From Spongiibacteraceae bacterium (lineage in GTDB: Bacteria; Pseudomonadota; Gammaproteobacteria; Pseudomonadales; Dasaniaceae), in assembly GCA_028280715.1 (NCBI GenBank), contig JANQLG010000012.1:62211-126210 (forward strand): a stretch of DNA of 64,000 nt, in the 5' to 3' direction. This document shows positions 27,773 through 34,224 of this stretch, piece by piece. A program made the translations under genes and the position numbers. The notes beneath the pieces were generated by a model. That model did no database searches and was not told the origin of the DNA. It was given only the letters and a program-made list of their open reading frames with translations. How positions within the stretch are numbered: the first letter of the stretch is position 1; every line of letters starts with the position of its first letter.

Positions 27773-28336
27773 TTAAGCAGCAAGCCAACATCTTTGCCCA
27801 CTAAAACGGGCTTTTAAGTATTCCATCTGATCACCACGAATCTGGCGATTATCCAGATACATAAATTCAAAAATATTCGGCGCAAAAGGAATGGCTAATA
27901 ATTCCATACCTGCTTGTTCTGGAGTACGACCACCTTTATGGTGATTGCACCGTTCACATGCAGCGACAACATTGGTCCAACAATCCTTACCACCTTGTAC
28001 ACGTGGCACAATGTGATCACGCGTTAACTGCCTGTTATCGAATTCCATTCCACAATACATACAACGTTGACCATCACGCCGAAACAACATCCTGTTAGTT
28101 AGCAGTGGTTCGAAGTTTTGTTTTCCAACATCACCACTGCAGGCAATGATCGGAGCTAGTTGCAAACTTGACTGCAAGCCTTCGCGGTTTACTCCACCAA
28201 AGATCCATAATGACTCAGAACCAAGACTCCAAATCACTTGCTCTTTTACATACATAGTGGCCGCTTCTTGACGGGTTACCCAAGCTTGAGGAACCCCTGA
28301 CTTATTCAATTTCAAAATGCGAGTTTGCTCTTTCAT
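27773..28336 (-). CDS. HNH endonuclease
   Basis: CMYCG...TRDHIVPRVQGGKDCWTNVVAACERCNHHKG (HNH/zinc-finger core). AGGTAGGAG RBS. It sits between tRNA genes. Confidence 0.8.
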   Translation of the reverse strand: MKEQTRILKLNKSGVPQAWVTRQEAATMYVKEQVIWSLGSESLWIFGGVNREGLQSSLQLAPIIACSGDVGKQNFEPLLTNRMLFRRDGQRCMYCGMEFDNRQLTRDHIVPRVQGGKDCWTNVVAACERCNHHKGGRTPEQAGMELLAIPFAPNIFEFMYLDNRQIRGDQMEYLKARFSGQRCWLAA

Positions 28337-28413: not shown

Positions 28414-28492
28414 TGGTACCCAAGGTGAGAGTCGAACTCACAAAATCAACAGATTCTAAATCTGCACGCTTTGCCAATTTGCGTACCTGGGT
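28414..28492 (-). tRNA. tRNA with UAG anticodon (Leu-decoding) but no long variable arm; non-canonical
   Basis: Acceptor ACCCAGG/CUUGGGU (one G.U), D arm CGCA-AAUUGGCAA-AGCG, anticodon arm GCAGA-UUUAGAA-UCUGU, 7-nt variable region UGAUUUU, T arm GUGAG-UUCGACU-CUCAC, A73, encoded CCA. Confidence 0.6.
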
Positions 28493-28539: not shown

Positions 28540-28614
28540 TGGTTGGGGCAATGGGAATCGAACCCACCTCCGCCGGATTAAAAGTCCGGTGCACAACCGC
28601 TATGCCATACCCCA
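28540..28614 (-). tRNA. tRNA-Lys (UUU)
   Basis: Acceptor UGGGGUA/UGCCCCA, D arm GCAU-AGCGGUU-GUGC, anticodon arm CCGGA-CUUUUAA-UCCGG, variable CGGAG, T arm GUGGG-UUCGAUU-CCCAU, A73, encoded CCA. 75 nt. Confidence 0.85.
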
Positions 28615-28630
28615 TCTTTCGAAAATAAAT

Positions 28631-28708
28631 TGGTCAGAGTGGTAGGACTCGAACCTACGACCCCCTCCATCCAAAGGAGGTGCGCTAACCAGACTGCGCT
28701 ACACTCTG
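28631..28708 (-). tRNA. tRNA-Pro (UGG)
   Basis: Acceptor CAGAGUG/CACUCUG (C1-G72), D arm GCGC-AGUCUGGUUA-GCGC, anticodon arm CCUCC-UUUGGAU-GGAGG, variable GGGUC, T arm GUAGG-UUCGAGU-CCUAC, A73, encoded CCA. 78 nt. Confidence 0.9.
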
Positions 28709-28723
28709 AAAATCTTTTTACTA

Positions 28724-28798
28724 TGGAGTGCGCAACTGGAATCGAACCAGTGAAAACGGAAGTTGCAGTTCCGCGCATTACCTCTCTGCCACACGCAC
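28724..28798 (-). tRNA. tRNA-Cys (GCA)
   Basis: Acceptor GUGCGUG/UGCGCAC (two wobble pairs), D arm GCAG-AGAGGUA-AUGC, anticodon arm CGGAA-CUGCAAC-UUCCG, variable UUUUC, T arm ACUGG-UUCGAUU-CCAGU, U73, encoded CCA. 75 nt. Confidence 0.85.
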
Positions 28799-28817
28799 TT
28801 TTTGCTCATTGTAAAAG

Positions 28818-28891
28818 TGGCTACGGTGTCCGGACTCGAACCGGAATCCTCGGAGTCAAAGTCCAATGCGTTACCATTTCGCCACACCGCA
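28818..28891 (-). tRNA. tRNA-Gln (UUG)
   Basis: Acceptor UGCGGUG/CACCGUA (U1-A72), D arm GCGA-AAUGGUA-ACGC, anticodon arm UUGGA-CUUUGAC-UCCGA, variable GGAU, T arm UCCGG-UUCGAGU-CCGGA, G73, encoded CCA. 74 nt. Confidence 0.85.
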
Positions 28892-28898
28892 AAAAATT

Positions 28899-28972
28899 TG
28901 GGGTGATGCCGGGAATTGAACCCTGGTCTCCTGGTCCACAGCCAGGCGCTCTACCACTGAGCTAACATCACC
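28899..28972 (-). tRNA. tRNA-His (GUG), one nucleotide short on the 3' side
   Basis: 5' GGUGAUGU-UA, D arm GCUC-AGUGGUA-GAGC, anticodon arm CCUGG-CUGUGGA-CCAGG, T arm CAGGG-UUCAAUU-CCCGG (A.G mismatch), 3' CAUCACC-CCA. The 5' side has the extra G typical of bacterial tRNA-His. Only 15 nt rather than 16 follow the T loop. Confidence 0.65.
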
Positions 28973-28978
28973 ACAATT

Positions 28979-29064
28979 TGGTGGGGAGGGAGTCGAACCC
29001 CCAAAGCTTTCGCGACGCGTTTACAGCGCGCTAGAGTTGCCACATCTCTTCTGTGCCTCCCCGC
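28979..29064 (-). tRNA. tRNA-Tyr(GUA)-like gene with aberrant acceptor/T-arm geometry (non-canonical or pseudo-tRNA)
   Basis: D arm AGAG-AUGUGGCAA-CUCU, anticodon arm GCGCG-CUGUAAA-CGCGU, 12-nt variable region containing GC-GAAA-GC, GGGGG-UUCGACU-CCCUC, end ...CCCCACCA. GGGGAGG can pair with CCUCCCC, but that uses nucleotides needed for the T stem. The gene is 4 nt short on the 3' side and has 4 nt extra on the 5' side. Confidence 0.4.
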
Positions 29065-29068
29065 TATT

Positions 29069-29143
29069 TGGCTGGCCTGGTAGGGGTCGAACCTACGATT
29101 CTCCGGTTAACAGCCGGACGCTTTACCACTCAGCTACAGACCA
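29069..29143 (-). tRNA. tRNA-Asn (GUU)
   Basis: Acceptor UGGUCUG/CAGGCCA (U1-A72, one U.G), D arm GCUG-AGUGGUA-AAGC, anticodon arm UCCGG-CUGUUAA-CCGGA, variable GAAUC, T arm GUAGG-UUCGACC-CCUAC, G73, encoded CCA. 75 nt. Confidence 0.85.
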
Positions 29144-29235: not shown

Positions 29236-29270
29236 AAAACCCCGGCTGGGTTCACCAACCGGGGTTTTTG
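29236..29270. terminator. Bidirectional rho-independent terminator between rtcA and the tRNA array
   Basis: AAAACCCCGGCTGG-GTTCA-CCAACCGGGGTTTTT, with an A-run before and a T-run after. Confidence 0.7.
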
Positions 29271-29510
29271 ATTACAAACTCCACTCCGGTTGGCACTAGC
29301 CTCCCGGAATTTCCAAAAGACTAGATTTTCGTTTTTTCACCTACAGACATCACTAGGTGACTTACATTTTTATTAGGCAGACTTTGCCCCTGCTTGCGAC
29401 ACTGCAAACATAAAAACCTTTCATTTATTGACAAATCTTTTGTCGTTTTCCTAAATAAATGGCATATCAAATTAACGATTACCTCTACGCAAAAATTTAC
29501 AGACATAAAA

Positions 29511-29549
29511 AAACCCGATAGATATTTTTCAAAAATACCTACCGGGTTT
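29511..29549. terminator. Long imperfect hairpin flanked by A/T runs (terminator-like) downstream of rtcA
   Basis: AAACCCGATAGATATTTTT-C-AAAAATACCTACCGGGTTT: 19-nt arms with 2 mismatches. Confidence 0.45.
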
Positions 29550-29859
29550 TAAACTTGTTTAAAGCTATTCAACCTGGAAGGCATAAGTGCCTTCCAAAAA
29601 GAAAGACACTGCTACCGATTATTCTCCACATGCGTGAGTGGGTTAATAACCATACGAATGCTATAACAGCACTGCATTAGGTTTTGTTGACCAAAAAATT
29701 TACTCATTACTTTTACTATTCGTTTTGCTTTATTTAAATCTTAATGAAAAATTAAAAAATTATTTCCATCAATTTAGTTGCAGCAATAATAGTATTCAAA
29801 ATTTCAAAGTCAACAAATTATTTATGAAAATATATACTTTATTAAAAAATTTATATTTT

Positions 29860-30885
29860 CTAAACACAAACCTCCCATACACCTTTTTCAATTTCACTCA
29901 ATTGAATATCAATATTCATTAACTGACTTATAATACTAATGTTAGTTAACAGGTGTTGACTTGGTTTTAGCGTTCGAAAAATACCACCCACACCCAATAC
30001 CATTGGCAACAACAACTGATCTGCCAGATATTCTCCTACACTAACATCAACTTTAAGGTAGCGTTTTACTTCTCGAATCGCCTTTTTTGCCACTCGCTCA
30101 GCACTAACACCATGCTCACCTACAACTTCTACCACTTCACTGACGTTTTCACTACACAAACGCAGTGAGAGAATATTGCCAGGACCTTGAGAACGTACAA
30201 GCTGTTGCTTAAGTGTCGACGCTGGCCACAACCCAATACGCCTAACTTGATCAAGTTCTCGTTCAGTAATATGCTCTGGTAAACACGCCGAAGTCGCAAC
30301 GGCTAAACGTGAAACTTCACGGCCACGTTCAACCAAATTTAGCCTTGTGGTTTTCTGCACTGGATAAATTCTTACACGCCAGGCACCACCGCCAGCAGGA
30401 TAAAAACCATAACGTTGTAACTCGACATCAGCCCGATAGCCCATTTGTGCAATAGCTGGCAAAAAACACTCAGCAATAAAATCAAAGCTAGGCGCAAATC
30501 CGTTATGTGTGCCACCTTCGAGATAAATTTCACTCACCTCTTTAGCGAATAACAGTGGCATATATACTGTTTGGAAAACCAAACTGGTACTGCCAGCTGA
30601 ACCCACTGAGAATCGGTATTCTCCAGCTTTAATCATCCCTGGCCTAAAAGTAACTTCCCTAGAACCCAATTCATCACCGGTTATTTCTGCATCGCAAATC
30701 ATTTGCGCAGCTCGTAGGCAAGTTAAGTGCTGCCGCAGCAAACCAGGCTTGGAACGACCTGCACGAATATTTTGTATTCGCACCGATTTTCCTAAACACA
30801 TTGCCAGGGTCAATGACGTTCGAAATATCTGTCCGCCACCCTCTCCTAATGAACCATCTATTACAATCACACTATTTTTCCTCAT
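29860..30885 (-). CDS. rtcA: RNA 3'-terminal phosphate cyclase
   Basis: Close to E. coli RtcA (IDGSLGEGGGQIFRTSL, RAGRSKPGLLRQHL, FYPAGGG, EYLADQLLLPM). The ATG at 30885 matches the E. coli N-terminus. The ORF-track extension to 30936 runs into the tRNA-like element. Confidence 0.9.
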   Translation of the reverse strand: MRKNSVIVIDGSLGEGGGQIFRTSLTLAMCLGKSVRIQNIRAGRSKPGLLRQHLTCLRAAQMICDAEITGDELGSREVTFRPGMIKAGEYRFSVGSAGSTSLVFQTVYMPLLFAKEVSEIYLEGGTHNGFAPSFDFIAECFLPAIAQMGYRADVELQRYGFYPAGGGAWRVRIYPVQKTTRLNLVERGREVSRLAVATSACLPEHITERELDQVRRIGLWPASTLKQQLVRSQGPGNILSLRLCSENVSEVVEVVGEHGVSAERVAKKAIREVKRYLKVDVSVGEYLADQLLLPMVLGVGGIFRTLKPSQHLLTNISIISQLMNIDIQLSEIEKGVWEVCV

Positions 30886-30892
30886 GTTTATT

Positions 30893-31049
30893 TGGTGGAC
30901 GTGACGGGATTCGAACCCGCGTATAACAACAACCAAGGCATTACTCTTGGTCAGTCATAGACTTGGAAACGCGCGCCAGCTGACACCCGCATTAGAGCAT
31001 CGAGCCTGCATCCTCAACCGTACATCTATCACTGATTACGTTGCCACCA
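30893..31049 (-). ncRNA. CCA-terminated tRNA-like element between rtcB and rtcA (Y-RNA/YrlA-like candidate or degenerate tRNA)
   Basis: Minus strand ends GCGGG-UUCGAAU-CCCGU-CACGUCC-A-CCA, 7 nt before the rtcA ATG. The 3' ACGU-CCACCA can pair with UGGUGG-CA-ACGU at 31038..31049. An internal hairpin ACCAAG-AGUAAUGC-CUUGGU is present. No standard cloverleaf could be closed by eye. Confidence 0.4.
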
Positions 31050-31130
31050 GTTTTACCCGGCTACCTTCATGCTAATCATTTTAGGTAGTGACACTCCCTA
31101 CGCATCAGCACACCCTATAATCTCAAACAA

Positions 31131-31153
31131 ATAGTGCCGTCCCTTGGCACTAT
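31131..31153. other. 8-bp hairpin immediately downstream of rtcB (terminator/processing-site candidate)
   Basis: ATAGTGCC-GTCCCTT-GGCACTAT. On the minus strand it is followed by TTGTTTG. Confidence 0.4.
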
Positions 31154-31177
31154 CCCTTGGTACAATGAAACATCCCT

Positions 31178-32404
31178 TTACCCTTTTACACACACCACTT
31201 GTTTTAAGGTGTACACGATTTCCACTAAATCCTGTTGCGCCTCCATCACTTTATCGATGGGCTTGTACGCAGCCGGTGTTTCATCAATCACACCTTTGTC
31301 TTTTCGGCACTCAACATCCGCTGTTGCCTGAAGGTGCTCTTCCAAAGACACCATTTTTTTTGCTTTAGTGCGCGACATCACGCGACCTGCACCATGGCTA
31401 CAACTACAGAAGCTTTCTTCGTTGCCAAGTCCGCGAACAATGTAAGACCGAGCTCCCATGCTTCCGGGGATAATACCCATTTCACCTTCGCGAGCGCGTA
31501 CCGCACCTTTGCGTGTAACCAACACATCTTTTCCATAGTGGTGCTCGCGAGACACATAATTATGATGACAGTTCACCGCTTCCATCCGCGCCTCAAAGAT
31601 CATCCCTAATTCTTCGGTAACCGCTGCGATAACACGAGCCATCATTACTTCTCGGTTAATACGTGCAAAATTTTGTGCCCATTCCACCGCTTCGACATAC
31701 TCATCAAAATGTTCAGTACCTTCTGGCAAGTAAGACAGGTCACTATCAGGCAAATGAATATGCCAACGCTCCATATCTTTCTTAGCCACTTCAATAAAGT
31801 GCGTACCAATGCAGTTACCAACACCACGTGAGCCGCTATGCAACATAAACCATACTCGACCATACTCATCCAAACACACTTCGATAAAGTGGTTGCCAGT
31901 ACCTAAAGTACCCAGATGGTTAATGTTGTTGGTATTTTTCAATACCGGATGTTTATCTACTAACACATCAAATTGTGCTGACAGCGGCATCCAGGCTTTC
32001 ATCACATCATCAGGGACATTACACCACGCACCTTTATCCCGCTTACCGCGCAAACGCCTTGAACGACCATGCGGTACTGCTTTTTCAATCGCATCACGAA
32101 TACCGGCCAAGCTATCAGGCAACTGCTCCGCGGTCAGGCTGGTTCGCACCGCCATCATCCCGCAGCCGATATCTACTCCAACGGCTGCAGGAATCACCGC
32201 ACCTAATGTAGGAACGACGCTGCCAATTGTTGCACCCTTGCCAAGGTGGACATCCGGCATTGCCGCCACCCATTGATGAATAAAGGGCATTCGCGAAATA
32301 TTCTTTAATTGCTCTTTAGCATCTTCTTCAAAAGGAACGCCTCGGGTCCAAGTTTTGATAGGTACACCACCGTCTTGCATTACTTCATAGCGCTCTTGAG
32401 TCAT
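31178..32404 (-). CDS. rtcB: RtcB-family RNA ligase (copy 2, RtcR-controlled)
   Basis: 408 aa with strong similarity to E. coli RtcB. It is divergent from rtcR and has a sigma54 promoter upstream. Confidence 0.92.
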   Translation of the reverse strand: MTQERYEVMQDGGVPIKTWTRGVPFEEDAKEQLKNISRMPFIHQWVAAMPDVHLGKGATIGSVVPTLGAVIPAAVGVDIGCGMMAVRTSLTAEQLPDSLAGIRDAIEKAVPHGRSRRLRGKRDKGAWCNVPDDVMKAWMPLSAQFDVLVDKHPVLKNTNNINHLGTLGTGNHFIEVCLDEYGRVWFMLHSGSRGVGNCIGTHFIEVAKKDMERWHIHLPDSDLSYLPEGTEHFDEYVEAVEWAQNFARINREVMMARVIAAVTEELGMIFEARMEAVNCHHNYVSREHHYGKDVLVTRKGAVRAREGEMGIIPGSMGARSYIVRGLGNEESFCSCSHGAGRVMSRTKAKKMVSLEEHLQATADVECRKDKGVIDETPAAYKPIDKVMEAQQDLVEIVYTLKQVVCVKG

Positions 32405-32470
32405 TGCCTTGTCCTTTAAGTACTGAGTACTTATTAATAATTTTTATCCCATCTCTTTGCCTATGAGTAT

Positions 32471-32486
32471 TGCGAAGGCAGTGCCA
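32471..32486 (-). promoter_or_regulatory. Sigma54 (-24/-12) promoter of rtcB
   Basis: The minus strand reads TGGCAC-TGCCT-TCGCA, with GG and GC at consensus spacing, 67 nt upstream of the rtcB ATG. Confidence 0.75.
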
Positions 32487-32631
32487 ACATTCTTAAAAAG
32501 GTAGAAAATATTTTTATCTTATTGTTTTTAAAGGTTTTATTTTTAGCAGAGTAAAAATTCAAGAAGTTTATCATTCGATTGAATGTATATTTTTATATCT
32601 ATTTTGATATCTATATATTATATTTGATAGC

Positions 32632-34224
32632 ATGAAAACCGTAGCGATCAGCATTCTAGGTACCACTATGGACCGTCGTGGTAAGGGCGAAAAACGCTGG
32701 GACAAATGGCGCCCCACCATTTCCATGTGCCAACACGATGACCTATTGATTGATCGTCTGGAACTGCTATTCGACAACCACTCGCAGAGCCTGGCTGAGC
32801 AAGTCAAAGAGGATATCGCCCGCGTCTCTCCAGAAACCGAAGTGATTTATCACCACGTCAACTTTCATGACCCCTGGGATTTTGAAACGGTCTATGGCGA
32901 ATTGCTCGACTTTGCACGAGGCTATTCTTTTAAACCAAGTAAAGAGCGCTACCTAACACACATCACAACCGGCACCCACGTTGCTCAAATCTGCTTGTAT
33001 CTGTTGACCGAAGCTGGCTACCTGCCAGGCCAATTAATCCAAACATCCCCGGCACCTAGAAACAGTAATGTAGCAGGCCAATATCAAATTATTGATCTGG
33101 ACTTATCCAAGTACGATCAAATTGCGTCGCGCTTTAAAAAGGAGCACTTTGAAGGCACCACTTACTTAAAGGGAGGAATAAAAACCAATAACAAAGCCTT
33201 TAACCAAATGATCGAGCAATTGGAGCAGGTATCGATTCGCTCAAGTGAGCCGATTCTTTTAACTGGCCCCACCGGCGCCGGCAAATCACAACTGGCCCAA
33301 CGGATTTATTCACTAAAAAAACAGCGCGGCCTAATCAGCGGTAATTTGGTCGTCGTCAACTGTGCGACCTTAAAAGGTGAGAATGCCATGTCTGCGTTAT
33401 TTGGCCATAAGAAAGGCGCCTTTACCGGTGCAACAACCGATAGAGCAGGCCTGCTTCGCGAAGCCGATGGCGGCATGTTATTTCTGGATGAAATTGGAGA
33501 ACTTGGTACGGACGAGCAAGCCATGCTGCTACGCGCAATAGAAGATAAAAAATTTATGCCATTCGGCGCTGACAAAGAAACCACCAGCAATTTCTTATTA
33601 ATCGCTGGTACTAATCGCGATTTGAGCGGTCAAGCTCAACGGGGAGAATTCCGCGAGGATTTACACGCCCGCATTGATTTGTGGACCTATCGACTACCTT
33701 CACTTTCAGAAAGGATGGAGGACTTCGAACCAAATCTCGATTATGAACTGGAGAATTACTCCACCAAAACCGGTTATCTCATCAGCTTTAACAAAGATGC
33801 CAGAAAAAAATACCTGCAGTTCGCAACATCGACAGAAGCCACATGGTCAGCCAATTTTCGGGACCTCAATGCCAGCATTACACGCATGGCAACCCTGGCC
33901 AATGGCGGTAGGATTACTGTAAGCGTCGTTAATGAAGAAATTGACCGACTGCAACACAAGTGGCAATCGACAAGCAATAAAAGCCACACCAATGACACAA
34001 CATTACTCAAATCCATTCTCGGTGAAAACAAGATTAAGTCACTGGACTTATACGAGCAGATGACACTAGCACCGGTATTAAAAATTTGTCAAAGCGCCAA
34101 CTCTATGGCCGAAGCAGGAAGAATCCTCTTCAATGTGAGCCGGGAGCAGAAAAAATCCAATAACGACTCACATCGGATAAAACAGATCCTGGATAAACAC
34201 CAGATTAAGTTTGGCGACCTATGA
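32632..34224 (+). CDS. rtcR: RtcR, CARF-domain sigma54-dependent transcriptional activator
   Basis: 530 aa. It has an N-terminal CARF-like region, an AAA+ sigma54-interaction core (LLTGPTGAGKSQLA, GAFTGA, LFLDEIGEL) and a C-terminal HTH. It is divergent from rtcB as in E. coli. Confidence 0.9.
   Translation: MKTVAISILGTTMDRRGKGEKRWDKWRPTISMCQHDDLLIDRLELLFDNHSQSLAEQVKEDIARVSPETEVIYHHVNFHDPWDFETVYGELLDFARGYSFKPSKERYLTHITTGTHVAQICLYLLTEAGYLPGQLIQTSPAPRNSNVAGQYQIIDLDLSKYDQIASRFKKEHFEGTTYLKGGIKTNNKAFNQMIEQLEQVSIRSSEPILLTGPTGAGKSQLAQRIYSLKKQRGLISGNLVVVNCATLKGENAMSALFGHKKGAFTGATTDRAGLLREADGGMLFLDEIGELGTDEQAMLLRAIEDKKFMPFGADKETTSNFLLIAGTNRDLSGQAQRGEFREDLHARIDLWTYRLPSLSERMEDFEPNLDYELENYSTKTGYLISFNKDARKKYLQFATSTEATWSANFRDLNASITRMATLANGGRITVSVVNEEIDRLQHKWQSTSNKSHTNDTTLLKSILGENKIKSLDLYEQMTLAPVLKICQSANSMAEAGRILFNVSREQKKSNNDSHRIKQILDKHQIKFGDL

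What the first reader, a model, noticed from the sequence alone, without database searches (positions are those of the whole stretch)
28899..29064. Structurally aberrant array members: Tyr-like gene that cannot close a cloverleaf and a His gene one nucleotide short
Seen: the GUA-anticodon gene has good D, anticodon and type-II-like variable elements and a UUCGACU T loop. Only 12 nt follow the T loop, where a canonical tRNA has 16. Thirteen nt rather than 9 precede the D stem. GGGGAGG can pair with CCUCCCC only by consuming the T-stem strand. The His gene has the canonical 10-nt 5' side (extra G, 7-nt acceptor strand, UA). It has 15 rather than 16 nt after the T loop and an A.G mismatch in the T stem. 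The UAG-anticodon gene at 28414..28492 lacks the long variable arm expected for bacterial Leu tRNAs. Inference: these are decaying copies, deliberately non-canonical decoys or sensors, or tRNAs with an unusual fold.
Basis: seen in the sequence. Interest (0 to 1): 0.6.

Follow-up and report, generated by a model that had tools for sequence, protein, structure and literature searches.

The report
Broken tRNA-Tyr copy beside variant tRNA-His
In a tRNA gene cluster inside a bacterial RNA-repair operon, the tyrosine-like gene is most likely a recently broken copy, while the odd histidine and leucine genes belong to conserved, probably working variant classes.

Summary
The GUA gene (28979-29062, minus strand) has 13 nt before the D stem and 12 nt after the T loop. 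ARAGORN and the Rfam tRNA model both miss it. Its one clear homologue, in Ca. Endobugula sertula, shares the 4-nt CACA insert between acceptor and D stems. That homologue keeps a full T stem and 3' acceptor strand, and seven base pairs differ between the two by compensatory double changes. The window copy lacks exactly one unit of an inferred CCTC-CCTC repeat at the T-stem/acceptor junction. So the 5' oddity is conserved, and the 3' defect looks like a lineage-specific slippage deletion, or an assembly error.

The His gene (28899-28972) scores 55 bits. Its missing nucleotide recurs in six arrays with covariation: a 7-bp acceptor helix starting at G-1, no unpaired discriminator, and a 3-nt connector. 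The short-variable-arm Leu belongs to a class of 22 sequences with strong covariation.

The array sits in an RtcR-RtcB-RtcA operon with HNH, SPFH/slipin, a CCA-adding-type enzyme, RlaP and a second RtcB. Related arrays are common upstream of the slipin gene and contain many broken members.

Verdict: a pseudogene next to conserved variants. Interest is modest.

The parts
28979..29062 (-). Tyr-like (GUA) tRNA-derived gene, probably a pseudogene. Parts: acceptor 5' strand 29056-29062; CACAGA connector 29050-29055; D arm 29033-29049; anticodon arm 29015-29031 (GUA at 29022-29024); variable arm 29003-29014; T stem 5' strand and loop 28991-29002; CCCUCCCC 28983-28990, which must serve as both T-stem and acceptor 3' strand; ACCA 28979-28982.
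   Evidence: Sequence. Not called by ARAGORN or the Rfam tRNA model. Called as a perfect tRNA-Tyr only after adding CCTC and removing CACA. Homologue at L007 4426-4513.
28899..28972 (-). tRNA-His (GUG) of a conserved variant class. It has a 7-bp acceptor helix that includes G-1:C73 (28966-28972 with 28902-28908) and a 3-nt connector UUA (28963-28965). The anticodon is at 28937-28939. The T stem has an A.G mismatch, and CCA is encoded at 28899-28901.
   Evidence: ARAGORN and Rfam at 55.4 bits. A 5-sequence alignment gave 94% of cells paired, 14 pairs with double changes and 0/500 shuffles. A further copy is in L174.
29069..29143 (-). tRNA-Asn (GUU), the first gene of the array; canonical.
   Evidence: 68.1 bits.
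28414..28492 (-). tRNA-Leu (UAG) with a Leu-type D arm, a 7-nt variable loop, A73 and encoded CCA. It belongs to a conserved short-variable-arm Leu class.
   Evidence: 50.1 bits. In a 22-sequence RNAalifold, 18 of 20 pairs showed compensatory changes.
28540..28891 (-). Canonical array members: Gln UUG 28818-28891, Cys GCA 28724-28798, Pro UGG 28631-28708, Lys UUU 28540-28614. All have encoded CCA.
   Evidence: 57-67 bits.
27773..28336 (-). HNH endonuclease gene at the end of the array. It is conserved at 60-76% identity in many marine Gammaproteobacteria and usually lies beside the slipin gene.
   Evidence: Pfam HNH_5 and HNH; homologues; contexts.
27207..27760 (-). Large conserved structured RNA upstream of slipin. 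It contains a full tRNA-like cloverleaf (27573-27646, called 'Met') and a second T-arm-like module. This is context, not part of the finding.
29860..34224 (.). RNA-repair genes upstream of the array: RtcA 29860-30936 (-), RtcB 31178-32404 (-), and the divergent RtcR 32632-34224 (+).
   Evidence: Pfam.
20351..27206 (-). Downstream operon genes: SPFH/slipin 26061-27206, CCA-adding-type nucleotidyltransferase with an HD domain 24766-26019, RlaP 23834-24739 and 23070-23837, an unknown ORF 21757-22701, and a second RtcB 20351-21562.
   Evidence: Pfam.
29236..29813 (-). Two sRNA-like units between rtcA and the array. Each has a sigma70-like promoter and an intrinsic terminator.
   Evidence: Sequence blocks are conserved in L164, L168, L169, L172 and L174. 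No Rfam family matches.

Best explanation
The array is a set of extra tRNA genes carried inside an RtcR-controlled RNA-repair operon. I infer that it is expressed with the operon to replace or buffer tRNAs cut by anticodon nucleases.

Tyr-like gene. It descends from a lineage-specific tRNA-Tyr that already carried a 4-nt insert (CACA) between the acceptor and D stems. That form was kept under structural selection. The window copy then lost 4 nt by slippage in an inferred CCTC-CCTC repeat spanning the T-stem/acceptor junction. The T stem and acceptor stem now compete for the same strand, so it cannot form an L-shaped tRNA. It is a recent pseudogene.

His gene. It is not damaged. It belongs to a conserved class in which G-1 pairs with C73 at the end of a 7-bp helix, rather than the usual 8-bp one. 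Position 7 joins a 3-nt connector, and CCA follows the helix directly. I infer that RNase P's normal 12-bp measuring would then leave G-1 in place, and that HisRS identity (G-1 and C73) is preserved.

Leu gene. It belongs to a conserved short-variable-arm class.

Shown: the anatomy, the homology, the covariation and the operon context. Inferred: the deletion mechanism, expression, charging and the replacement role.
For: 1. Two edits (add CCTC, remove CACA) turn the window gene into a perfect ARAGORN tRNA-Tyr with a 7/7 acceptor stem. Removing CACA from L007 raises its acceptor from 5/7 to 6/7.
2. Window and L007 are 87% identical. By direct reading, they differ by double compensatory changes at 4 acceptor pairs (shifted register), 2 anticodon-stem pairs and 1 T-stem pair. 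The chance of 7/7 and 6/7 complementarity at one fixed register in both genes is about 1e-5.
3. L007 has CCAUC plus UGCCUAC after the T loop. The window has C-CCUC-CCC, which equals C-CCUC-CCUC-CCC minus one unit.
4. Closest syntenic arrays:
- L174 (Asn-His-Gln-Cys-Pro-Lys) and L083 lack the Tyr-like gene. Their Asn-His spacers keep only a GAAGAG motif.
- L002 has a different Tyr gene with a deletion from the T loop to the acceptor between UUC repeats.
- Tyr is present in only 24% of 51 arrays, against 78% for His.
5. Related arrays hold many other broken members:
- a His with a 105-nt replacement (L083);
- a Leu with a roughly 70-nt insert in the T loop (L168);
- a His/Gln chimera (L172);
- an Asn/Pro chimera (L164);
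- a Cys with a D-loop insert (L083).
6. His class: window, L168, L015, L092 and L154 gave 94% of cells paired, 14 pairs with double changes and 0/500 shuffles. Slid registers gave 41-51%. L174 is a sixth copy. In all six the helix is followed directly by CCA.
7. Leu class: 22 sequences, with compensatory changes at 18 of 20 pairs.
8. Context: Pfam assignments.
9. Published parallels:
- tRNA arrays with HNH and rtcB nearby, co-induced under translational stress, with 3 of 26 genes being pseudogenes (PMC8421152);
- RtcR activation by cleaved tRNAs (PMC7790460).
Against: - Only one homologue of this Tyr type was found, so the ancestral CCTC-CCTC state is inferred rather than observed.
- The CACA insert already gives a 6-nt connector that no standard tRNA has. 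L007 also fails the Rfam tRNA model (tRNA-Sec 20.4 bits). The parent form may therefore never have been a translating tRNA.
- Two independent Tyr-type genes (window and L002) lost the T arm yet kept a closable acceptor stem and an intact anticodon arm. That could reflect selection rather than decay.
- No expression, processing or charging data exist.
- The deletion could be an assembly error. An independent copy of the source genome could not be retrieved.
Confidence: 0.6

Rival explanations
1. Sentinel or decoy RNA. The Tyr-like transcript is kept on purpose as a non-translating RNA. Its intact GUA anticodon arm would be cut by nucleases specific for QUN anticodons (colicin E5-like). That would soak up the toxin or generate 2',3'-cyclic-phosphate fragments that switch on RtcR.
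For: - The anticodon arm, D arm and ACCA end are intact while the T arm is disabled, both in the window and, independently, in L002.
- The first three array genes are Asn, Tyr and His. From my own knowledge, tRNAs with QUN anticodons are colicin E5 targets.
- RtcR responds to cleaved tRNA halves (PMC7790460).
- Charged but untranslated irregular tRNAs in polycistrons have been reported (PMC5389517).
Against: - The two lesions differ and are not conserved in any second genome.
- The nearest arrays have simply lost the gene.
- Many other array members are broken in unrelated ways, as expected from decay.
- The T-stem pairs still covary with L007, so the T arm was in use until recently.
Confidence: 0.12
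2. Sequencing or assembly artefact. The genome really has CCCTCCCTCCCC, and one CCTC unit was dropped in a C-rich low-complexity stretch.
For: - The defect is exactly one unit of a short tandem repeat in a C-rich run. Long-read assemblies tend to compress this kind of site (my own knowledge).
- Every other stem is intact and covaries with L007.
Against: - The other eight tRNAs score normally.
- The surrounding operon genes are intact full-length ORFs with full Pfam matches and no split genes.
- Even if repaired, the gene still has the CACA insert, and ARAGORN still does not call it at default settings.
Confidence: 0.12
3. Functional tRNA with an unusual fold. Candidates are a tRNA without a T arm, a Sec-like fold, an 8/4 or 9/3 allo-tRNA-like fold, or one in which CACA pairs with UGUG of the D loop.
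For: - Weak tRNA-Sec hits in both the window (19.6 bits) and L007 (20.4 bits).
- CACA can pair with UGUG in the window.
- Irregular acceptor-branch tRNAs exist in tRNA clusters (PMC5389517).
Against: - Only 8 nt lie between the T loop and A73, whereas 7/5, 8/4 and 9/3 folds all need 12.
- The folding energy is no better than shuffles.
- The anticodon is GUA, not UCA.
- CACA:UGUG is not supported in L007, where CGUG gives an A.C mismatch.
- The T-loop sequence and T-stem covariation show that a normal T arm was the selected state.
Confidence: 0.06

Closest known systems
[quoted passage not shown]
   Same: - Dense polycistronic tRNA genes with an HNH endonuclease gene and rtcB in the neighbourhood.
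- Spread by horizontal transfer.
- Induced under translational stress.
- Some members are pseudogenes (3 of 26 in Anabaena).
   Different: - The window array is short, with 8 genes plus the Tyr-like copy.
- It lies inside an RtcR/sigma54-type rtcBA operon of a Cellvibrionales-like gammaproteobacterium, between rtcA and an SPFH gene.
- Regulation by TrcR-type repeats is not shown here.
Irregular tRNAs in tRNA polycistrons: 8/4 tRNA-His, G-1 'tRNA1' species, allo-tRNAs (Mukai et al., PMC5389517)
   Same: - Non-canonical acceptor-branch arithmetic in clustered tRNA genes.
- G-1-bearing species can be charged by HisRS.
- Some are charged but not used in translation.
   Different: - The window His keeps G-1:C73 but has a 12-bp branch with one unpaired nucleotide in the connector. 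The published 8/4 tRNA-His lacks G-1 and has A73.
- The Tyr-like gene fits none of the 7/5, 8/4 or 9/3 schemes.
Salmonella rsr-yrlBA-rtcBA operon with the tRNA-like Y RNA YrlA (PMC7790460)
   Same: An RtcR-regulated RtcB/RtcA operon that also encodes tRNA-like non-coding RNA.
   Different: - No Ro/Rsr gene is present.
- The Rfam YrlA model scores 20 bits against a gathering threshold of 69.
- The window has real tRNA genes plus a different large tRNA-like-containing RNA.
Ordinary tRNA pseudogenes made by small deletions or recombination
   Same: A tRNA-derived sequence with intact arms but a lesion that prevents closure of the cloverleaf. Relatives have lost it or have other lesions.
   Different: The parent form already carried a conserved 4-nt insert, with covariation around it.

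Membership tests
Canonical bacterial elongator tRNA (7/5 cloverleaf) | A 7-bp acceptor stem and a 5-bp T stem can form at the same time (12 nt between the T loop and N73). | tested here: not met
   In the Tyr-like gene only 8 nt lie between the T loop and A73, so the two stems share 4 nt. There is no ARAGORN call and no RF00005 hit.
Canonical bacterial elongator tRNA (7/5 cloverleaf) | A 2-nt connector between the acceptor and D stems. | tested here: not met
   The Tyr-like gene has 6 nt (CACAGA), shared with L007. His has 3 nt. In a survey, 531 of 561 array tRNAs had 2 nt.
Bacterial tRNA-Tyr (type II) | GUA anticodon, A73, G1:C72 and a long variable arm. | tested here: met
   The Tyr-like gene has GUA at 29022-29024, A73 followed by CCA, G1:C72 and a 12-nt variable arm with a GAAA-capped mini-stem. 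Charging was not tested.
Bacterial tRNA-His | Encoded G-1 paired with C73, a GUG anticodon, and CCA directly after the helix. | tested here: met
   In the window His the first G pairs with the C before CCA. This holds in all six class members.
Bacterial tRNA-His | An 8-bp acceptor helix (G-1:C73 plus pairs 1:72 to 7:66). | tested here: not met
   Only 7 bp form and U7 has no partner. The feature is conserved with covariation.
Bacterial tRNA-Leu (type II) | A long variable arm. | tested here: not met
   The window gene has a 7-nt variable loop and most of its 22-sequence class has 5 nt. The Leu-type D arm and A73 are kept.
tRNA pseudogene | tRNA-derived sequence with a disabling lesion that orthologues lack, and loss in relatives. 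| tested here: met
   L007 has the full 3' side. L174 and L083 lack the gene. Lack of expression was not tested.
tRNA-Sec / allo-tRNA (8/5, 9/4, 8/4, 9/3) | [quoted passage not shown] | tested here: not met
   Only 8 nt are available. tRNA-Sec scores 19.6 bits against a gathering threshold of 47.
YrlA-type Y RNA | Match to the Rfam YrlA model and an adjacent Ro (rsr) gene. | tested here: not met
   20.2 bits against a threshold of 69. No TROVE/Ro domain was found among the operon ORFs scanned with Pfam; one ORF had no Pfam match.
tRNA array linked to RNA repair (L-array-like) | Dense same-strand tRNA genes with HNH and RtcB genes nearby. | tested here: met
   The arrangement recurs in 51 non-identical arrays upstream of slipin homologues. 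Stress induction is not testable with these tools.

The most novel reading that the evidence does not exclude
The rtc-operon arrays may deliberately keep non-translating, tRNA-shaped RNAs as sentinels or decoys for anticodon nucleases. Examples would be the Tyr-like genes in the window and L002, which have an intact GUA anticodon arm but a disabled T arm. Cleavage of such RNAs would feed RtcR activation. The conserved 6-nt-connector Tyr and the 7-bp G-1 His would then be new tRNA architectures tuned for this repair system.
Probability: 0.12. Interest if true: 0.8.

Novelty: new variant of a known kind. Interest (0 to 1): 0.38.

Why it matters
A broken tRNA copy in a fast-evolving array is ordinary. 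Three things around it are worth a specialist's attention.

1. A conserved tRNA-His keeps G-1:C73 but has a 12-bp acceptor branch. This bears on how RNase P and HisRS define tRNA-His.
2. A conserved bacterial tRNA-Leu class lacks the long variable arm.
3. tRNA arrays are embedded in RtcR-RtcBA repair operons of Gamma- and Betaproteobacteria. The amino acids best represented (His, Lys, Asn, Gln, Asp, Glu, Arg) are those whose tRNAs I know to be anticodon-nuclease targets.

This links RNA repair with supply of replacement tRNAs. It also offers a testable system for what Rtc operons defend against.

Tried and rejected
- Close relatives in the phage and plasmid collections: only generic tRNA hits.
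- Pattern scan for the Tyr-like D arm plus anticodon (GAAGAGNNGTGGNNACTCTAGNNNNNTGTAA): no hits in viral or metagenome contigs. Among the 80 loci held at that point only L007 matched, and no other homologue turned up in loci fetched later.
- Retrieving the source genome or an independent assembly to check the deletion: not on record.
- Alternative folds for the Tyr-like gene were rejected: Sec-like with a 6-bp D stem, 8/4, 9/3, T-armless, and a CACA:UGUG pseudoknot. The arithmetic fails (8 nt available), there is no covariation, and the folding energy equals that of shuffles.
- YrlA/Y RNA was rejected (20 bits; no Ro gene found).
- The canonical-register acceptor for L007 that ARAGORN chose (5/7) was rejected in favour of the shifted register (6/7 in L007, 7/7 in the window).
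- My automatic connector-length survey misplaces D stems of type II tRNAs. I use only its majority figure and the hand-checked cases.
- Burroughs and Aravind 2016 on RNA repair systems could not be read. I cannot say whether they already described these arrays.

Full report
**1. What is there**

On the minus strand, ARAGORN finds a run of tRNA genes:
- Asn GUU (29069-29143)
- His GUG (28900-28972)
- Gln UUG
- Cys GCA
- Pro UGG
- Lys UUU
- Leu UAG (28414-28492)

An HNH gene (27773-28336) follows, then a further 'Met' gene (27571-27646).

Nothing is called in the 96 nt between Asn and His. The Rfam tRNA model hits all eight called genes at 50-71 bits. In the gap it finds only a sub-threshold tRNA-Sec match of 19.6 bits, E = 1.6.

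Read by eye, the gap holds a tRNA-derived gene at 29062->28979. Its parts in order are:
- GGGGAGG (acceptor 5' strand)
- CACAGA (connector)
- AGAG-AUGUGGCAA-CUCU (D arm)
- A
- GCGCG-CUGUAAA-CGCGU (anticodon arm)
- CGCGAAAGCUUU (variable arm)
- GGGGG-UUCGACU-CCCUC (T arm)
- CCC
- ACCA

- Thirteen nt precede the D stem and 12 nt follow the T loop.
- The 7/7 acceptor pairing GGGGAGG:CCUCCCC consumes four T-stem nucleotides.
- The minimum-energy fold is no better than shuffled sequence (z = -0.6).
- His has 15 nt after the T loop and an A.G mismatch in the T stem.
- Leu has a 7-nt variable loop.

**2. Context**

Pfam scans show that the array lies inside an RNA-repair operon. The order is:
- RtcR (divergent)
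- RtcB
- RtcA
- two sRNA-like units, each with its own promoter and terminator
- the tRNA array
- HNH
- a tRNA-like element
- an SPFH/slipin protein
- a CCA-adding-type nucleotidyltransferase with an HD domain
- two RlaP nucleotidyltransferases
- an unknown ORF
- a second RtcB

Homologues of the slipin place the organism among Cellvibrionales-like marine Gammaproteobacteria.

I fetched 162 slipin loci from genomes and metagenomes and scanned them for tRNAs. Fifty-one non-identical arrays of 3 or more tRNA genes (3-34) lie upstream of the gene, in Gamma- and Betaproteobacteria. The amino acids most often represented are His (78% of arrays), Lys (69%), Pro and Leu (63%), Arg (61%), Asn (59%), Gln (55%), and Asp, Glu and Phe (49%). 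Tyr is present in 24% and Ser in 10%.

The two closest slipin relatives (84% and 79% identity) have no array between rtcA and slipin. The array is therefore a variable insertion in a conserved operon.

The HNH protein is conserved at 60-76% identity and regularly lies beside slipin.

Published work bears on this context:
- Long tRNA arrays with an HNH gene and rtcB nearby have been described. They are co-induced under translational stress, and 3 of 26 genes are pseudogenes (PMC8421152).
- RtcR is activated by cleaved tRNAs (PMC7790460).
- RlaP adds one or two nucleotides to damaged RNA 3' ends (PMC12776372).
- An SPFH gene lies in the Pseudomonas aeruginosa rtc locus (PMC13086221).

**3. The Tyr-like gene**

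One clear homologue exists, in the array of Ca. Endobugula sertula (L007 4426-4513). Its parts are:
- GCAGGUA
- CACAGA
- AGAG-ACGUGGUGA-CUCU
- A
- GCCGG-UUGUAAC-CCGGU
- CGCGAAAGCUUU
- GGUGG-UUCAACU-CCAUC
- UGCCUAC
- ACCA

The two genes are 87% identical.

Both carry the invariant CACAGA connector. In both, the 7 nt upstream of it pair with the 7 nt before ACCA: 7/7 in the window, and 6/7 with one G.U in L007. The two sets of sequences are quite different.
- Four acceptor pairs, two anticodon-stem pairs and one T-stem pair differ by changes on both sides.
- With a pairing probability of 0.375 per position, the chance of 7/7 and at least 6/7 at one fixed register is about 1.4e-5.
- The 13-nt 5' side is therefore a conserved feature of a lineage kept under structural selection. 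It is not decay.

The 3' side is different. L007 has a full T stem and a separate 7-nt acceptor strand. The window's C-CCUC-CCC is what remains if one unit is removed from C-CCUC-CCUC-CCC, that is, the T-stem strand CCCUC followed by the acceptor strand CCUCCCC.

ARAGORN calls the window gene as a perfect tRNA-Tyr only after adding CCTC and removing CACA. Adding CCTC alone is not enough at default settings. L007 also fails the Rfam tRNA model (tRNA-Sec 20.4 bits).

The arrays with the same gene order as the window lack the gene:
- L174 has Asn-His-Gln-Cys-Pro-Lys. L083 has Asn-His-Gly-Met-like-Gln-Cys-Pro-Lys.
- Their 22-nt Asn-His spacers both contain GAAGAG, the D-arm motif of the Tyr-like gene. 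This may be a remnant.

L002 carries a different, E. coli-like Tyr gene at the same position after Asn. It has lost the stretch from the T loop to the acceptor strand between two UUC repeats.

**4. Broken members are common in these arrays**

In related arrays I found:
- a His with a 105-nt replacement of its variable loop and T-stem strand (L083);
- a Leu(UAG) with a roughly 70-nt insert in the T loop (L168);
- a Met-like gene with a destroyed T arm, and a Cys with a D-loop insert (L083);
- an Asn/Pro chimera and a 225-nt tRNA-like gene (L164);
- a His/Gln chimera (L172, L173).

The lesions are all different. That pattern fits turnover by slippage and recombination between neighbouring tRNA genes. 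It may be helped by the HNH endonuclease, but that is an inference.

**5. The His gene**

The same 15-nt 3' side occurs in L168 (Porticoccus sp. W117), L174, L015, L092 and L154.

An alignment of five of them was scored against a cloverleaf whose acceptor helix runs from the first G. That gives 7 bp followed by a 3-nt connector. The results were:
- 94% of cells paired;
- 14 of 21 pairs with double changes;
- 0 of 500 shuffles reached the observed values;
- registers slid by 1-3 columns gave only 41-51% paired.

In all six genes the helix is followed directly by CCA. The first G therefore plays the part of G-1 paired with C73, which is the tRNA-His hallmark. Canonical tRNA-His has 8 bp here. 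This class has 7, so the acceptor/T stack is 12 bp, as in ordinary tRNAs.

I infer two consequences. RNase P's usual measuring would leave G-1 in place, and HisRS identity would be retained.

In the window, L168, L174 and L092, U7 could instead pair with position 65 (G, G, G and A respectively). That would give an 8/4-like branch. L015 and L154 do not support this.

Irregular tRNA-His and G-1 species in tRNA clusters, including 8/4 forms, have been reported (PMC5389517). This exact form has not, to my knowledge.

**6. The Leu gene**

Twenty-two distinct 77-79-nt Leu genes from these arrays share three features: a Leu-type 3-bp D stem with a large D loop, a 5-7-nt variable loop, and invariant A73-CCA. 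RNAalifold recovers a cloverleaf in which 18 of 20 pairs show compensatory changes. The short arm is a conserved class, not a defect.

**7. Mechanism**

The best reading is that the array supplies extra tRNAs together with the repair enzymes. The best-represented species match tRNAs I know to be attacked by anticodon nucleases.

Within the array:
- the Tyr-like gene is a recently inactivated copy (confidence about 0.6);
- the His and Leu genes are working variants (about 0.7 each, inferred from covariation only).

The rivals are a selected decoy or sentinel (0.12), an assembly artefact (0.12), and an unusual functional fold (0.06).

**8. Verdict**

Novelty is a new variant of a known kind, namely irregular and pseudo-tRNAs in repair-linked tRNA arrays. 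Interest is modest for the finding itself and higher for the operon context.

Noticed in passing
window 27207-27760 (-); L001-L174, roughly 250-520 nt upstream of slipin: The whole stretch between HNH and the slipin start codon is a conserved, large structured RNA. It contains a full tRNA-like cloverleaf, which at 71.4 bits is the best Rfam tRNA score in the window. Its anticodon loop varies freely between genomes (CAU, AAU, AUU, GGU, and 6- or 8-nt loops) and it lacks CCA. It also contains a second T-arm-like module and a long-range helix (GAGGCCCA with UGGGCCUC) just before the ribosome-binding site. RNAalifold on 15 loci gave 85 pairs, 55 of them with compensatory changes. No Rfam family matches.
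   Followed up: partly
window 29236-29813 (-): Two sRNA-like units lie between rtcA and the array. Each has a sigma70-like promoter (TTGACT-16-TATTAT and TTGTCA-16-TATGTT) and a strong intrinsic terminator. Sequence blocks are conserved in L164, L168, L169, L172 and L174. No Rfam match reaches its threshold.
   Followed up: partly
L168 5441-5590; L083 7772-7925; L164 5146-5371: Some tRNA genes carry 70-150-nt insertions or replacements in the T loop, T arm or body. Examples are a Leu(UAG) in Porticoccus, a His in a metagenome contig, and a 225-nt tRNA-like gene with a closable acceptor stem. They do not look like clean introns. Whether RtcB-dependent processing is involved is unknown.
   Followed up: no
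L007 4344-4420: The Endobugula array tRNA-Asn has a 4-nt connector (UGAA) between a 7/7 acceptor stem and the D stem. This is a second case of connector expansion in the same array as the CACA-bearing Tyr.
   Followed up: partly
L019, L022, L049, L056, L060, L061, L113, L118, L129, L130, L135, L158 (His genes): The His genes of betaproteobacterial arrays have U or C at position -1 and CACCCCCAAG at the 3' end. G-1 and CCA are therefore not encoded in the usual way. The flanks (GGG..., ...CCC) extend the acceptor helix.
   Followed up: no
window 20351-21562 and 31178-32404 (-): Two full-length RtcB genes bracket the operon, and two tandem RlaP genes lie beside a CCA-adding-type enzyme. The 314-aa ORF at 21757-22701 has no Pfam match.
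   Followed up: no
L169-L171 3633-3920: In one relative a TacA1-type antitoxin gene follows slipin directly. This hints at a link between these loci and tRNA-targeting toxin systems.
   Followed up: no
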